NCBI RefSeq assembly: GCF_009914755.1
Contig: NC_060930.1
DNA: 64,000 nucleotides
DNA from: the human T2T-CHM13v2.0 reference genome, Homo sapiens
Strand: one strand, 5' to 3'
Shown piece after piece: positions 39,001 through 44,151 of this stretch. Each line of letters begins with the position of its first letter. Position 1 is the first letter of the stretch. A program made the position numbers and the translations under genes. The notes beneath the pieces were generated by a model. It was given only the letters and a program-made list of their open reading frames with translations. It did no database searches and had not been told where the DNA came from.

Positions 39001-40899
39001 AGGTGACCTTTCTATAGGTGGTAACCATAGTAACAGATTTCCAGTCGCTAACACTCTGACACCACTTGTGCACTGCAAATATTATAGGGATGCTGAGGAT
39101 TGATGTTGAGGGTTACCCTCCAGAGACAGAAGCTGCATAAATACTTATCAATTTGAGAGAAAGATGTTAAAAGAAATTTAAAGCCATATTCCCTGCTCTC
39201 TTGCTAATCAGACAGGAATCTTCCTCCCCTCAAGATCTCAATAATATCTCACTTAGAGAATATCAAGGTAAAAATAAAAGATGTGGATCTTTAAGAGGAA
39301 CATGGAAAAAGAAAATTTGTTCCTTACATTACTCTTAAGTAGGACATTCAATGGATCAGGGTGAAAGACAAACACTCATTTGGGAGTCTATTCTTTGCTT
39401 TGAAGTACTTATGGAGTCCCCATGAGCTATAATGGGAGTTACATGCTCTCATCAATGGAGAACTGGCTTGGCAGTGTAAATCTAGGCAACTGTGGTTTCA
39501 GCACTTAATTCAGAAAGAGAAAACTTTCGAGGTACTAGGAAAGTTGGAAGGTACATCTGCTAACTAGAAGTCAGTGAAGAAAATATCAGAAAAGAGAATG
39601 AAAGTAGCTGGTCATTACAGGCCATATGAAAATCTAAGTACTCTTGATCCTTAAGTGGTGATTACACATCTTTCATACATAAGTAAAACACTGCACAGAG
39701 TCTCTGCTTCCCCCTAAAAAGTGGGTTCACTTAGACAGCTTGTTTCCCTATTTTTAAGAGATTCATTCATATTTTTAATAAGTTCATCTTTGAGCTTGTT
39801 GTATACTATTTAAGAACACTGAAATGTCTCATGTCTTTTGAGACATTTATTGATGATGCCAAGTAAATTTGACATTTAATAAAGATCTCTTAAAACCCCA
39901 GTTGTTATTCCATTTTTTTGCTACCTCTATACTTCCTGTCTGGGTCTTATTTGGTTTTTGCACTCTCTCAATTTGTCTATATGTTGTCATTTCCATCCTT
40001 AAAATTTAGCACAATTCAAGTTTTGCCCATCCTATAATTTATCAAGCTATAACTTGCTTTCTAAACCTTGATCACTATTGTGTCACAGACACTCTGATTT
40101 TTTTTTTTTAACTTCTTGCCTTTTAATATTATCTTTGAATATAGATGGTTTCAATTCTCCAGTAACAAGATGTAGAGTGGCCAAATGGTTTTTCATACAT
40201 GTTTCCCTAGTCCAGACACCCAAGAGTATGTCCCTTTCTTGGGCATAAGAAAACCTAGAGTTATATTTAGGGCATCATGTGTGGTGAATAGTTGACCGAG
40301 CTGGCATGCTCACAATGACCAAATTATGTTTGTCATATTTTAATCCAATACATTGATCTACTATGAACTTGTAAATAATGTATTTGCTTTCTAGACACAT
40401 TCCAGGAAAACTAGAGAAACTGACTTTTATCCATATGGAATAATCCACTGGCCAATTTCTTTTAGGACAGACCAAAGCTGATCTAGGACATAATCTTTAC
40501 ATACTTGGATCCTTCACATCAGACGACAAAGAACATCTGGGGTGAAAGGCTCCATTAGAAGAGCAATGTGGGATGGTGCTGTGCTGACAACTGGTAGTCC
40601 CTACCCTACATCTTTGTAGAGGACTGGAGCCCAGAGTATGCCATGGTCAACTTGCATGTTGAAGTGAAGACCTCATTCGAGGTGTGCATGTGCTTATTAC
40701 AGATATGCCACGGTGCTAAGTACCCCAGGACTACAGGAAAAAATAAGAATTGATGCTTTATCCATGATCATGAGGCACACAGGCCAGAGCGCCAACTGTG
40801 GAATTGCACAGCCTGGGTTCAAAGCCTGGCTGGGCCATGACCACCTGAATGACCTGAGGAATGGTCTCAGGCAAATTTGTAAAAAGTAGAGACCCTTCC

Positions 40900-41521
40900 T
40901 GCCAGGGCGGCATGTGGTAAGAGGCGCATCCAGTCAGGTCAGGGCACCGCGTCCTCTCTTTGGAAACCTGCGGAGCGAGGCTGGTGGCCCTTGAGGCCAC
41001 GGCAGCCATGGAGAAGGCAGGCCTGGCTCCAGGCAGCACAGAGGCACTGGAGAGGCCCCGGGGGAGCCTGGCGGGATCTGGCTGGTCCTGCGCTCTGCTT
41101 CCAGGTTCTGGCCCTGTAACCCAGGGGACAGGGCCGGCCAAGACAGGGCCACTGGGTGCCAGCCAGCACCTGGGCCAGGCGCCAGGTGGAAGGGCTCTGG
41201 CGGATCAGCCCCGCACCCCTAATAGCCCCACAGGGGGGCCCATCCAGGGCCACACACCTGCCCCCAGGAGCAGGACGTCCCTGAGGCTAGAGTCCAGCTG
41301 GAGCGGTGGAAGGGTCTCACCCTTTGCCCTTTGACTCCTCTTGTAGGCACCCTCGCTGGGCTCCTTAGCACTCCTCCACACCCTGGCTCTGTCATCAGCC
41401 CCATAGTGATGTCATAAACTCCCAGATGCCCAGTGTGCACCCGGCCACAGAGAAGTGGGTGACTTAGGAGTATCCTCTCCACTTCTGACCCTTAGTTTCG
41501 TCTGTGCACAACTCGCTCAAA
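40900..41521 (+). promoter_or_regulatory. GC-rich upstream region, putative promoter/5'UTR of the NPAP1-like ORF
   Basis: Abrupt GC rise; TGATGTCA at 41407-41414 is one CpG deamination away from a CRE (TGACGTCA). Function is inferred only. Confidence 0.35.
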
Positions 41522-42770
41522 ATGGGCAACTCATTAAGCGTATTTTGTTCCTGGTTCCGCCGCAGGTCCTGGCCACGCCATCGGCAACCTGCTCGTCTTG
41601 TCCGTGAGGCCTTCCCAGCTGGCCGGGCTCACCCCGCGGCTCCTGCACCCGTGCCTGCCCGGGGCATCTGGGGCCATTCCCCACTCCTCTTCAACCGTCA
41701 GCGACATCTTGGGCCTTCTTTTCCAGTCAGCTGGGACGGCGCCCTTATGAGGCTGTGTCTTATCCCTTGGAACACGGACACCCCACAGAGTCCTGCCTCC
41801 TGTAGTCTGGAGCGCCCCCTCAAGGAAGAAACCCGTGCTATCTGCTCGTAACTCCATGATGTTTGGACACCTCAGCCCCGTGAGGAACCCTCGTCTCAGA
41901 GGCAAGTTTAACCTTCAACTTCCTTCATTAGATGAGCAGGTGATCCCAACCAGGCTCCCGAAGATGGAGGTGAGGGCAGAAGAGCCCAAAGAAGCAACGG
42001 AGGTGAAAGACCAGGTAGAGACCCAGGGGCAGGAGGACAATAAAACGGGCCCCTGTAGCAATGGGAAAGCAGCCTCCACCTCTAGGCCCCTGGAGACTCA
42101 GGGAAACCTCACTTCCTCCTGGTACAATCCCAGGCCCTTGGAGGGAAATGTCCACCTCAAGAGCTTGACAGAAAAGAACCAGACTGACAAGGCCCAGGTG
42201 CATGCAGTGAGTTTCTACTCCAAGGGCCATGGAGTCACCAGTTCACACAGCCCTGCTGGAGGCATCCTTCCCTTTGGGAAGCCTGACCCACTTCCAGCAG
42301 TGCTCCCTGCCCCTGTTCCGGACTGCTCCCTGTGGCCAGAGAAGGCAGCCTTGAAGGTGCTGGGTAAAGACCACCTGCCTAGCTCTCCAGGCTTGCTGAT
42401 GGTGGGGGAGGACATGCAGCCCAAGGATCCTGCAGCTCTTAGATCAAGTAGGTCTTCTCCACCCAGAGCTGCCGGCCACAGGCCCCGCAAAAGAAAACTG
42501 TCGGGGCCACCGCTGCAGCTGCAACAGACCCCTCCCCTGCAACTGAGGTGGGATAGAGACGAGGGGCCCCCACCAGCTAAGCTTCCATGTCTATCTCCTG
42601 AGGCACTGTTGGTGGGTAAGGCTTCCCAAAGAGAAGGACGCCTCCAGCAGGGCAACATGCGTAAGAACGTGAGAGTGTTAAGTAGAACATCAAAATTCAG
42701 GAGACTAAGACAGCTGCTTAGGAGGAGAAAGAAGAGATGGCAGGGCAGGCGTGGTGGCTCACGCCTGTAA
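41522..42770 (+). pseudogene. Intronless NPAP1/POM121-related UPF0607-family gene copy with one frameshift near 41790
   Basis: MGNSLS...GRAH; VLPPVVWSAPSRKKPVLSARN..FGHLSPVR; SNGKAASTSRPLETQG; PLEGNVH; GKPDP; RKRKLS; WDRDEGPPPAKLPCLS are colinear with the recalled NPAP1 N-terminal region. Confidence 0.88.
41835..42770 (+). CDS. Open 311-codon frame (GTG start; first ATG at 41856 gives 304 aa), putative UPF0607 protein
   Basis: Uninterrupted ORF, Pro/Ser-rich, NLS-like RPRKRK, Arg-rich C-terminus; expression unknown. Confidence 0.55.
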   Translation: MLSARNSMMFGHLSPVRNPRLRGKFNLQLPSLDEQVIPTRLPKMEVRAEEPKEATEVKDQVETQGQEDNKTGPCSNGKAASTSRPLETQGNLTSSWYNPRPLEGNVHLKSLTEKNQTDKAQVHAVSFYSKGHGVTSSHSPAGGILPFGKPDPLPAVLPAPVPDCSLWPEKAALKVLGKDHLPSSPGLLMVGEDMQPKDPAALRSSRSSPPRAAGHRPRKRKLSGPPLQLQQTPPLQLRWDRDEGPPPAKLPCLSPEALLVGKASQREGRLQQGNMRKNVRVLSRTSKFRRLRQLLRRRKKRWQGRRGGSRL

Positions 42771-42825
42771 TCCAGCACTTTGGGAGGCCCAGGCGGATGG
42801 ATCAGGAGGTCAAGAGATTAAGACC
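42743..42825 (+). mobile_element. AluSc-like, 5' part (split by SVA2)
   Basis: ggcgtggtggctcacgcctgtaatccagcactttggg...gaggtcaagagattaagacc. Confidence 0.92.
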
Positions 42826-43646: not shown

Positions 43647-43667
43647 GTTTACTTTTTAGTTAAAAAA

Positions 43668-43873
43668 AGGAGATCGAGATCATTCTGGCCAACATGGTGA
43701 AACTCCGTCTCTACTGAAAATACAAAAATTAGGCGGGCACAGTGGCTTGTGCCTGTAGTCCCAGCTACTCGGGAGGCTGAGGCAGGAGAATGGCTTGAAC
43801 CCAGGAGGTGGAGGTTGTAGTGAGCCGAGATCACACCACTGCACTCCAGCCTGGTGACAGAGCAAGACTCCAT
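43668..43873 (+). mobile_element. AluSc-like, 3' part; last bases and poly(A) absent
   Basis: gagatcgagatcattctggcc...cctggtgacagagcaagactccat; ends at the antisense AG acceptor position. Confidence 0.93.
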
Positions 43874-44133
43874 CCTGAAACGATGTTGTAGTTGAGAGCA
43901 TGATGGTCTTTTGGGACAGGAGGAACAAGAGGTTCTGGTTGCCACTCTTCAATCAGTTCTTCTTTTTCCTTGACTGTAAGGTCAGATCTTTCTTGTAATT
44001 TGTAAGTCTTAGAGAAAAGAAGTCTGATTATCCAGAGTATCAGAATCCCTTCCAAAATAAGATGGTAAGCAGGAGCCTCGTAAAGCGCCTGTACCATCTC
44101 CACCAGAACCCACTGCTCCGTGGCAGTCGCCAT
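43831..44133 (-). CDS. Intact 100-aa chimeric ORF: SPTLC1 aa 1-87 plus 13 Alu-derived aa
   Basis: Kozak actATGG, open to TGA inside the antisense Alu; no promoter evident. Confidence 0.35.
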
Positions 44134-44151
44134 AGTTAGCCGCTTCCTTCC
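43874..44151 (-). pseudogene. SPTLC1P: Processed SPTLC1 fragment (18 nt of 5'UTR plus c.1-260, exons 1-3)
   Basis: [44 protein letters not shown]...NYNIVSG is the SPTLC1 N-terminus, without introns; specific paralogue number not determined. Confidence 0.95.

What the first reader, a model, noticed from the sequence alone, without database searches (positions are those of the whole stretch)
40098..44151. Main candidate: bidirectional composite retro-element, an SPTLC1-driven exon-trap RNA carrying an antisense NPAP1-like gene, split Alu and SVA2 VNTR
Seen, left to right: GC-rich upstream region, NPAP1-like ORF (+), Alu 5' part, SVA2 VNTR with poly(A) signal, Alu 3' part, then intronless SPTLC1 exons 3-2-1 (-). 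Inferred order: (1) an NPAP1/POM121-type retrogene was cut off by an AluSc; (2) SVA2 inserted into that Alu; (3) a copy lying antisense within or downstream of SPTLC1 trapped exon 3 at the Alu acceptor; (4) L1 machinery retrotransposed that RNA here. The cassette could therefore move in both polarities: as a + RNA ending at the SVA2 ATTAAA, or as a - RNA from a borrowed housekeeping promoter. From memory, unverified: several dispersed UPF0607 ORFs and several short SPTLC1 pseudogenes are annotated separately. They may be parts of one VNTR-composite family distinct from SVA and LAVA.
Basis: partly seen in the sequence, partly recalled or inferred. Interest (0 to 1): 0.92.

Follow-up and report, generated by a model that had tools for sequence, protein, structure and literature searches.

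The report
SPTLC1 exon-trap retrocopy carrying NPAP1-like gene
This 4-kb stretch is one of nine dispersed reverse-transcribed copies of an unusual SPTLC1 transcript that spliced into a backwards Alu in its own intron and so carried a whole nuclear-pore-like gene, upstream region included, around the human genome in antisense.

Summary
Window 40098-44151 is a single unit on the minus strand. It holds SPTLC1 exons 1-2-3 without introns, joined at c.260 to the antisense end of an Alu. It then runs antisense through an SVA2 nested in that Alu and through an NPAP1/POM121-like (UPF0607) gene with 1.4 kb of its upstream DNA. It ends at an ATTAAA site and a 12-nt poly(A).

I found the source in SPTLC1 intron 3 on chr9. 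There the same block lies antisense 2.3 kb below exon 3. Its Alu keeps a T20 tract and an AG acceptor, and the poly(A) site has a GU-rich downstream element.

Eight other full-length copies on seven other chromosomes share the identical junction. Their flanks, tails and target-site duplications differ. Their 5' ends and cleavage sites vary, and their tree is a star. All therefore come from one source gene in one burst.

The "bidirectional, self-propagating VNTR-composite family" reading is not: no plus-polarity copy was found, and the SVA2 is an antisense passenger.

New here: the UPF0607 ORFs and the SPTLC1P pseudogenes are two ends of one retrocopy. Five of nine copies keep the 416-aa ORF, with fewer stop mutations than expected.

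The parts
40098..40109 (-). Poly(A) tail of the retrocopy, seen as 12 T on the + strand
   Evidence: In all nine copies, homology to the source starts right after a T-run or a degenerate T-rich run.
40122..40127 (-). ATTAAA polyadenylation signal of the minus-strand RNA, about 15 nt before the tail
   Evidence: In the source locus the same signal is followed by the cleavage site and a GU-rich downstream stretch.
40110..41521 (+). Upstream DNA of the NPAP1-like gene, carried along in antisense. It is AT-rich up to about 40850, then 57-72% G+C.
   Evidence: One search gives composition. One search shows homology to the NPAP1 locus on chr15 and the NPAP1L loci on chr9. In the copy consensus, CpG observed/expected is 0.33-0.52, which is below the usual CpG-island threshold.
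41522..42770 (+). NPAP1/POM121-like (UPF0607) ORF. It was 416 codons in the ancestor and is split here by one indel into 109 aa + 304 aa. The last codons and the stop lie in the Alu.
   Evidence: Pfam POM121 (PF15229), E 1.3e-21. RefSeq pseudogene LOC100129616.
42741..42825 (+). Alu, 5' part
   Evidence: Rfam Metazoa_SRP match at 42744-42846, plus my reading.
42826..43668 (+). SVA2-type insert: VNTR (42826-43563), unique 3' tail with ATTAAA (43641-43646) and A7. It is flanked by a 12-bp duplication of the Alu target (42814-42825 and 43670-43681).
   Evidence: period 40, 17.9 copies; the tail recurs at 211 or more candidate loci, and 40 of 40 scored match at 92-98%; the dominant SVA2 repeat units are 40 and 39 bp.
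43669..43873 (+). Alu, 3' part. Its last base is the first base of the trapped exon in the minus-strand RNA.
   Evidence: Rfam match at 43732-43876. Junction alignment. The source Alu continues with A20.
43874..43968 (-). SPTLC1 exon 3
   Evidence: 99% identical to chr9:104275227-323. The gene there has ...TTTCAGG|gtaaat.
43969..44076 (-). SPTLC1 exon 2
44077..44151 (-). SPTLC1 exon 1: 18 nt of 5' UTR plus the ATG at 44133-44131
   Evidence: RefSeq SPTLC1P2 is annotated at 43874-44151.

Best explanation
Window 40098-44151 is an L1-mediated, full-length retrocopy of an alternative SPTLC1 mRNA. It is one of nine such copies in this genome.

In the source gene (chr9, minus strand), intron 3 holds a 6.7-kb duplicated block in antisense. 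The block is an NPAP1/POM121-like (UPF0607) gene with an Alu in its body and an SVA2 inside that Alu. Read on the SPTLC1 strand, the Alu's poly(A) becomes a 20-nt polypyrimidine tract followed by AG. Exon 3 spliced to that acceptor. The new terminal exon ran 3.7 kb antisense through Alu, SVA2 and the NPAP1-like gene with its upstream DNA, to an ATTAAA site.

Such mRNAs were made from SPTLC1's own promoter. L1 proteins reverse-transcribed them into new sites during one short period. From branch lengths and recalled primate calibrations I infer roughly 15-25 million years ago.

Shown: the anatomy, the source locus, the splice and poly(A) sites, the nine copies, their independent insertion, and the star tree.
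Inferred: L1 as the machinery, germline expression of the isoform, and the date.

A consequence is that the NPAP1-like gene was copied with its upstream region, because it rode in antisense. Most copies still carry its open reading frame.
For: - Copies. A whole-genome search with the SPTLC1 piece scored 13 of 13 candidates. They were nine intronless copies (chr1, 2, 6 twice, 8, 9, 10, 13, 16), the three exons of the gene, and one duplicated exon 3.
- Extent. All nine copies align to window 40090/40108..44148/44152, but their flanks do not align (I dropped rows under 150 bp).
- Junction. All nine copies carry ...CGTTTCAGG|AYGSAR.... This equals exon 3 joined to the source Alu just after its AG.
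- Source signals. Exons have canonical gt/ag borders. The acceptor reads t20-gag|ACGGAGTC. ATTAAA is followed by a cleavage site and a GU-rich element.
- TSDs (with control alignments). They are clear in 6 of 9 copies, at 9-17 bp. They are short or imperfect in 2 of 9, and none was found in 1 of 9 (the window copy).
- 5' ends fall at four positions, and the extra bases of L010, L013 and L014 match the DNA just upstream of SPTLC1 exon 1.
- In L013 and L014 the tail starts 4-8 nt further downstream.
- Tree. Internal branches are 0.0004-0.0024 with bootstrap 19-79. Terminal branches are 0.015-0.025. The source sits inside the star. Pairwise differences are 2.9-4.75%.
- Identity of the parts: SPTLC1; POM121 family; Alu; SVA2.
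Against: - The window copy itself shows no target-site duplication.
- Only the human genome could be searched, so the date and the order of insertions rest on divergence alone.
- Nothing here shows that the exon 3-Alu isoform is made today or was germline-expressed.
- The searches score only the best candidates, so copy counts are lower bounds. Searches did score all of their candidates.
- L013 and L014 group together at bootstrap 79 and share the longer 5' end and the later cleavage site. A shared source allele, or less likely a copy of a copy, is not excluded for that pair.
Confidence: 0.93

Rival explanations
1. A self-propagating, bidirectional VNTR-composite retrotransposon family. Daughter copies would themselves be sources. 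They would move either as the minus RNA with a borrowed SPTLC1 5' end, or as a plus RNA ending at the SVA2 poly(A).
For: - Nine of ten retrocopies are full length, the tenth being L020. No canonical SPTLC1 retrocopy was seen. This hints that this RNA was an unusually good L1 substrate.
- It contains a VNTR of the kind that matters for SVA and LAVA mobilisation (abstract of PMC4432496).
- L013 and L014 pair at bootstrap 79.
Against: - The tree is a star with the source gene inside it.
- The 5' ends are SPTLC1 start-site scatter with no foreign 5' transduction. Only 18-42 nt of 5' UTR is carried, and no SPTLC1 promoter.
- The VNTR and the Alu are antisense in the mobilised RNA.
- No locus returned ends at the SVA2 poly(A) without the SPTLC1 end.
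- There are only 9-10 copies.
Confidence: 0.04
2. The SPTLC1 piece was joined to the Alu by reverse-transcriptase template switching during L1 integration, not by splicing of one pre-mRNA.
For: L1-made chimeric retrocopies of two RNAs are a known class (recalled, no call). The junction lies at the end of an Alu.
Against: - The junction falls exactly at the exon 3 donor (…CAGG|gt) and exactly after an AG preceded by T20. Both lie in the same gene, 2.27 kb apart and collinear.
- The identical junction occurs in 9 of 9 independent insertions. Template switching would give varied junctions.
Confidence: 0.02
3. The copies are segmental (DNA-level) duplications of a chr9 locus.
For: Two DNA-level duplicates of the block do exist on chr9. 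One is at 94.58 Mb: inverted, 94-95% identical, at least 8.3 kb, and it includes exon 3. The other is at 100.01 Mb, 88-91% identical.
Against: - The nine copies lack introns 1 and 2 and the 2.27 kb between exon 3 and the Alu.
- They start at a poly(A) tail and end at the SPTLC1 start site.
- They have unrelated flanks and TSDs.
Confidence: 0.01

Closest known systems
Exon trapping by SVA (the MAST2-SVA / SVA_F1 group). Known to me from Hancks et al. 2009 and Damert et al. 2009 (recalled). One search showed only listings and abstract starts of later papers that discuss it.
   Same: A retroelement sits in an intron. Upstream exons of the host gene are spliced onto an acceptor inside Alu-derived sequence. 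The chimeric, host-promoter-driven RNA is then retrotransposed by L1.
   Different: - Here the acceptor is the classical antisense-Alu acceptor of a free-standing Alu.
- The SVA2 and the Alu are antisense passengers.
- The RNA ends at a fortuitous ATTAAA inside the upstream DNA of another gene.
- The copies show no sign of onward amplification (star tree).
Alu exonisation through the antisense poly-T/AG 3' splice site (Sorek, Lev-Maor, Ast and colleagues; recalled)
   Same: The source Alu offers T20 plus gAG. Splicing occurs directly after that AG.
   Different: The result is not a cassette exon. It is a 3.7-kb alternative terminal exon with its own poly(A) site, and the evidence for it is nine fossil cDNA copies rather than RNA data.
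Gene duplication by retrotransposon-mediated transduction (the SVA-borne AMAC1 copies of Xing et al. 2006; recalled)
   Same: A whole gene is multiplied as a passenger of an L1-mobilised RNA.
   Different: The passenger here lies antisense in the RNA and so keeps 1.4 kb of its own upstream DNA. The driver is a housekeeping gene's promoter and splice donor, not a retroelement.
Primate retrocopy families from one parent gene, such as the KU70-derived NUKU copies (PMC8496227; abstract start seen)
   Same: Several L1-type retrocopies of one parent, with TSDs, poly(A) tails and no introns.
   Different: The parent RNA is a chimeric, prematurely terminated isoform. The coding potential that survives lies on the opposite strand.
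VNTR composites SVA, LAVA, PVA and FVA, and their ancestor SVA2 (PMC4432496; abstract and SVA2 passages read)
   Same: The unit contains an SVA2 VNTR of 40-bp units and Alu sequence. Assembly involved splicing.
   Different: - The VNTR is not in the sense of the mobilised RNA.
- There is no CT-hexamer or Alu-like 5' module.
- There are 9-10 copies rather than hundreds or more.
- There is no subfamily structure.
The UPF0607 / NPAP1 / NPAP1L / POM121 gene family (Neumann et al. 2014, PMC3942032; abstract, methods, passages and Table S2 read)
   Same: The ORF here belongs to their UPF0607 group. The group is intronless and restricted to primates.
   Different: They sampled two human UPF0607 proteins and treated the group as ordinary retrogenes or duplicates. 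The main text holds no occurrence of SPTLC1, SVA or Alu. The copying vehicle found here is an antisense SPTLC1 transcript.

Membership tests
L1-mediated processed retrocopy | No introns of the parent gene | tested here: met
   Exons 1, 2 and 3 lie 2.7-3.6 kb apart in the gene and are contiguous in the window.
L1-mediated processed retrocopy | Poly(A) tail at the 3' end of the copied RNA, after a poly(A) signal | tested here: met
   T12 at 40098-40109 and ATTAAA at 40122-40127 on the minus strand.
L1-mediated processed retrocopy | Target-site duplication | tested here: inconclusive
   None was found for the window copy. Among the eight sister copies it is clear in six and short or imperfect in two.
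L1-mediated processed retrocopy | Dispersed copies with unrelated flanks | tested here: met
   Nine loci on eight chromosomes, with homology confined to the unit.
L1-mediated processed retrocopy | Insertion at an L1 endonuclease-type TTTT/AA site | not tested
   I did not score the target sites.
SVA/LAVA-type VNTR-composite retrotransposon | VNTR and Alu-like module in the sense of the mobilised RNA | tested here: not met
   The poly(A) tail and the SPTLC1 5' end put the RNA on the minus strand. The Alu and the SVA2 are on the + strand.
SVA/LAVA-type VNTR-composite retrotransposon | Onward amplification from daughter copies (subfamilies) | tested here: not met
   The tree is a star and the best internal support is 79. 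No copy carries a 5' transduction.
SVA2 | VNTR of about 40/39-bp units, followed by a unique 3' sequence, poly(A) and a TSD | tested here: met
   One search gives the 40-bp period. One search gives the published unit sizes. One search shows the tail shared by dispersed loci. The 12-bp TSD is read, and the empty site in L025. I held no SVA2 reference sequence, so identity to the named consensus was not tested.
POM121 / NPAP1 family | Match to Pfam PF15229 above its curated cut-off | tested here: met
   77.9 bits against a cut-off of 27. DNA homology to the NPAP1 locus on chr15 is 66-76%.
SPTLC1 | Sequence identity to the human protein and gene | tested here: met
   86 of 87 residues match PDB 6m4n_A. 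The DNA is 97-99% identical to the three exons on chr9.
Antisense-Alu exonisation | Splicing directly after an AG that follows the antisense poly-T of an Alu | tested here: met
   The source reads t20-gag|ACGGAGTC, and the copies begin at ACGGAGTC.

The most novel reading that the evidence does not exclude
Antisense hitch-hiking acted as a gene-duplication mechanism. Because the NPAP1-like gene lay backwards in an SPTLC1 terminal exon, each retrocopy delivered the gene together with 1.4 kb of its own upstream DNA. That seeded the primate UPF0607 protein family in one burst, and several copies have since been kept as rapidly evolving coding genes.

Support so far:
- Five of nine copies keep all 416 codons. 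Under neutrality the probability of five or more is 0.014.
- One stop-creating change was seen among 277 changes, against 7.2 expected (p 0.006).
- In the SPTLC1 part of the same copies, 3 of 43 changes create stops (Fisher p 0.008).
- Non-synonymous changes are in excess, with omega about 1.4 (p 0.016).
- The non-CpG rate in the ORF is 1.47 times that of the rest of the unit (p 2e-4).
Probability: 0.3. Interest if true: 0.8.

Novelty: new variant of a known kind. Interest (0 to 1): 0.6.

Why it matters
- It joins two sets of annotations that are listed separately, the 'UPF0607-like' ORFs and the SPTLC1P pseudogenes, into one explained unit with an identified source locus.
- The nine copies are fossil cDNAs. 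They document an alternative, prematurely terminated SPTLC1 isoform (87 N-terminal residues plus an Alu-coded tail) in ancestral germ cells.
- It gives a clean natural example of a gene being retro-duplicated in antisense, and therefore with its upstream DNA. Ordinary retrocopies lose that DNA.
- It gives nine datable, independent insertions carrying an SVA2 VNTR. These range from 31 to 1218 bp, which is useful for studying VNTR change.
- For annotation, UPF0607 loci should not be read as sense retrogenes of NPAP1.

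Tried and rejected
- Segmental duplication was rejected.
- Template switching was rejected because of the exact donor/acceptor junction.
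- Plus-polarity copies ending at the SVA2 poly(A): none appeared among the loci.
- chr9:94.58 Mb was considered as the source and rejected. It has a copy of exon 3 but no exons 1 or 2.
- Canonical SPTLC1 retrocopies:
  - None carries exons 1-3 without the Alu junction.
  - A PF00155 search scored 9 of 54 candidates, falling at 7 intronless places. None of the 7 matches the SPTLC1 gene apart from repeats at their edges.
  - 5'-truncated canonical copies were not tested.
- TSD of the window copy: not found.
- CpG island in the carried upstream DNA: observed/expected CpG is 0.33-0.52 in the copy consensus, so it is not a clear island. Promoter function is untested.
- Literature:
  - SPTLC1 + pseudogene + retrotransposition gave 0 papers.
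  - SPTLC1P gave 14 papers. I saw the listing only, and the titles are GWAS, expression or enzyme studies.
  - SPTLC1/Alu/chimeric/retrocopies gave 74 papers. The 15 listed have 0 occurrences of SPTLC1.
  - UPF0607 gave 3 papers.
  - Subscription journals and repeat or pseudogene databases could not be searched, so 'not in print' is not established.

Full report
**What is in the window**

Reading 39500-44800 with the tandem-repeat, ORF and Rfam scans gives this layout on the + strand:

| Window place | Feature |
|---|---|
| 40098-40109 | Run of 12 T |
| 40110-41521 | 1.4 kb that turns G+C-rich after about 40850 |
| 41522-42770 | ORF, 109 + 304 codons in two frames |
| about 42741-42825 | First 85 bp of an Alu |
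| 42826-43563 | About 18 units of a 40-bp VNTR |
| 43564-43668 | 105-bp unique tail with ATTAAA and A7 |
| 43669-43873 | Rest of the Alu |
| 43874-44151 | 278 bp, minus strand |

- The last 278 bp translate on the minus strand to residues 1-87 of human SPTLC1, with 86 of 87 identical to PDB 6m4n_A.
- The ORF matches Pfam POM121 (PF15229) at 77.9 bits against a cut-off of 27.
- The VNTR-plus-tail insert is flanked by a 12-bp duplication of the Alu target.
- Its tail recurs at 211 or more candidate loci, and 40 of 40 scored match at 92-98%.
- Its 40-bp unit agrees with the 40/39-bp units reported for SVA2 (PMC4432496, passages read).

**The unit and its sisters**

- A genome search with the SPTLC1 piece scored all 13 of its candidates. 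It returned nine intronless copies (chr1, 2, 6 twice, 8, 9, 10, 13, 16), the three real exons on chr9, and one extra exon 3.
- After fetching each locus, BLAST shows that all nine align to window 40090/40108 through 44148/44152 and not in their flanks (rows under 150 bp dropped).
- Each copy starts with a T-run or a degenerate T-rich run. Each ends at the SPTLC1 5' UTR.
- TSDs:
  - Six copies have clear ones: 17, 15, 14, 13 (two mismatches), 11 and 9 bp.
  - Two have short or imperfect ones.
  - The window copy has none that I could find.
- Searches with the two halves of the NPAP1-like block scored all of their candidates, 24 of 24 and 20 of 20. They add only one further retrocopy, on chr8 at 36.6 Mb.
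  - It is 87-88% identical to every other member.
  - It starts at the same cleavage site and is truncated inside the VNTR.
  - It has an 11-bp TSD.

**The source**

- The three exons lie at chr9:104281800-875, 104278941-9051 and 104275227-323, on the minus strand of that chromosome.
- The whole block from the cleavage site to the end of the Alu lies at 104269280-104272956. That is inside intron 3, antisense to SPTLC1, 2.27 kb below exon 3.
- Printed in mRNA sense:
  - Exon 3 ends ...TTTCAGG|gtaaat.
  - The Alu end reads cttac-T20-gag|ACGGAGTC.
  - The distal end reads ATTAAA, then 17 nt, then the cleavage site, then a GU-rich stretch.
- All nine copies carry ...TTTCAGG|ACGGAGTC..., or a CpG-decayed form of it.
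- This is ordinary splicing to the well-known antisense-Alu acceptor, followed by intronic polyadenylation.

**One source or a family?**

I aligned the nine copies with three other rows: a spliced version of the source made in a script, the chr9:94.58 Mb duplicate, and the chr9:100.01 Mb paralogue as outgroup. I removed the VNTR columns (window 42815-43575). I left out the chr8 truncated copy and the more distant NPAP1 and NPAP1L loci.

- Pairwise differences among the eleven close rows are 2.9-4.75%. To the outgroup they are 8.3-10.3%.
- The maximum-likelihood tree is a star. Internal branches are 0.0004-0.0024 with bootstrap 19-79. Terminal branches are 0.015-0.025. The source sits within the star.
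- The 5' ends fall at four positions. The longer ones continue into the DNA just upstream of SPTLC1 exon 1.
- Two copies were cleaved 4-8 nt further downstream.

These are independent mRNAs from SPTLC1's own promoter, not copies of copies. With recalled calibrations (about 3% per lineage since the Old World monkey split), terminal branches of 1.5-2.5% suggest roughly 15-25 million years. This date is inference.

**How the block was built**

- NPAP1 on chr15 and both NPAP1L pseudogenes align to the source on both sides of the Alu and lack it.
- A chr10 fragment (one of three near-identical places) has the same NPAP1-like/Alu junction with an uninterrupted Alu and one copy of the 12-bp target. 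The Alu therefore came first and the SVA2 second.
- chr9:100.01 Mb shares 6.7 kb (104266740-104273428) with the source at 88-91%, including the Alu and the SVA2. It keeps NPAP1 homology beyond the point where the intron block ends. The intron block is thus a truncated DNA-level duplicate of an older UPF0607 locus.
- chr9:94.58 Mb is an inverted duplicate of at least 8.3 kb of the SPTLC1 intron 2-3 region, 94-95% identical, with exon 3.

**The passenger ORF**

- The ancestral frame is 416 codons.
  - It is whole in five of nine retrocopies.
  - It is 407 codons in a sixth.
  - It is frameshifted in the window copy, in two other retrocopies, in the source and in the 94.58 Mb duplicate.
- I counted private changes against a majority consensus, which is appropriate for a star tree, and took the mutation spectrum from the same data. 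The nine copies show 216 non-synonymous, 60 synonymous and 1 stop-creating change, against 193.5, 76.0 and 7.2 expected.
- The SPTLC1 part of the same copies shows 26, 14 and 3. Fisher p for the stop counts is 0.008.
- The indel rate does not differ between the ORF and the upstream DNA (4 against 9 events, p 0.28).
- The non-CpG rate is 1.47 times higher in the ORF than elsewhere in the unit (p 2e-4).

This pattern fits a fast-evolving but frame-preserved gene in some copies. It is suggestive only. It rests on one genome, one consensus and modest p-values.

**What is known**

- Neumann et al. 2014 (PMC3942032; abstract, methods, passages and Table S2 read) define UPF0607 as a primate, intronless, POM121-derived group. 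They sample two human members. They mention neither SPTLC1 nor Alu nor SVA.
- My searches found no paper that links SPTLC1 pseudogenes to UPF0607 or to retrotransposition. The library lacks most subscription journals and the repeat and pseudogene databases.
- Mechanistically this is a variant of known things: Alu exonisation, exon trapping as in MAST2-SVA, and retrocopy families.

**Verdict**

- The 'bidirectional, new VNTR-composite family' reading is not supported.
- The window copy itself is a dead member: its ORF is frameshifted, it has no TSD, and the annotation given with the finding lists no gene before it within 100 kb, the nearest after lying about 114 kb on.
- The interest lies in the family-level explanation and in the antisense delivery of a gene together with its upstream DNA.

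Noticed in passing
L020 (chr8:36592500-36602499), about 4311-6892, minus orientation: An older tenth retrocopy of the same minus-strand RNA, 87-88% identical to all other members. It starts at the same cleavage site with a degenerate T-run, is truncated inside the VNTR, and has the 11-bp TSD CACTCTTTCTT. The RNA was therefore being copied before the main burst, from an unknown promoter.
   Followed up: partly
L017+L027 (chr9:94565500-94585499): An inverted segmental duplicate of at least 8.3 kb, 94-95% identical, covering SPTLC1 intron 3, exon 3 and part of intron 2, including the whole NPAP1-like/Alu/SVA2 block. Its left end lies beyond the DNA I fetched.
   Followed up: partly
L019 (chr9:100007500-100017499), ORF 4174-5667 minus: The likely older UPF0607 locus. 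It has a 498-codon POM121-family ORF, the same Alu+SVA2, and NPAP1 homology that continues past the end of the SPTLC1-intron block. A more diverged inverted partner lies 36 kb away (L021, 72-81% identical).
   Followed up: partly
L025 (chr10:88256500-88264500), 4005-5130; similar hits at chr10:80.73 Mb and 51.54 Mb: Three near-identical chr10 fragments of the NPAP1-like gene with the Alu but without the SVA2. This is the pre-insertion state, apparently spread by chr10 segmental duplication.
   Followed up: partly
Window 42826-43563 and the equivalent stretch in L009-L018: The antisense-carried SVA2 VNTR measures 31, 615, 738, 975-978 (three copies), 1138 and 1217-1218 bp (two copies) in the retrocopies, and 652 bp in the source. 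Either the source allele changed length during the burst, or the arrays changed after insertion.
   Followed up: no
L013 (chr13) and L014 (chr6:64.37 Mb): These two copies share a 5' end 21-24 nt longer than the others, a cleavage site 4-8 nt later, and the only internal tree node with bootstrap above 56 (79). They may come from one source allele or one time.
   Followed up: no
G000:C12:16390968-16391735 (L038): An intronless aminotransferase-family (PF00155) match with a 348-codon open frame and no stops, unrelated to SPTLC1. It is possibly a retrogene of another aminotransferase.
   Followed up: no
Window 43831-44133, minus strand: The copy keeps a 100-codon ORF: SPTLC1 residues 1-87 (with one change), then 13 Alu-coded residues and a stop. 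Across the nine copies this part shows 26 non-synonymous, 14 synonymous and 3 stop changes, which looks neutral.
   Followed up: yes
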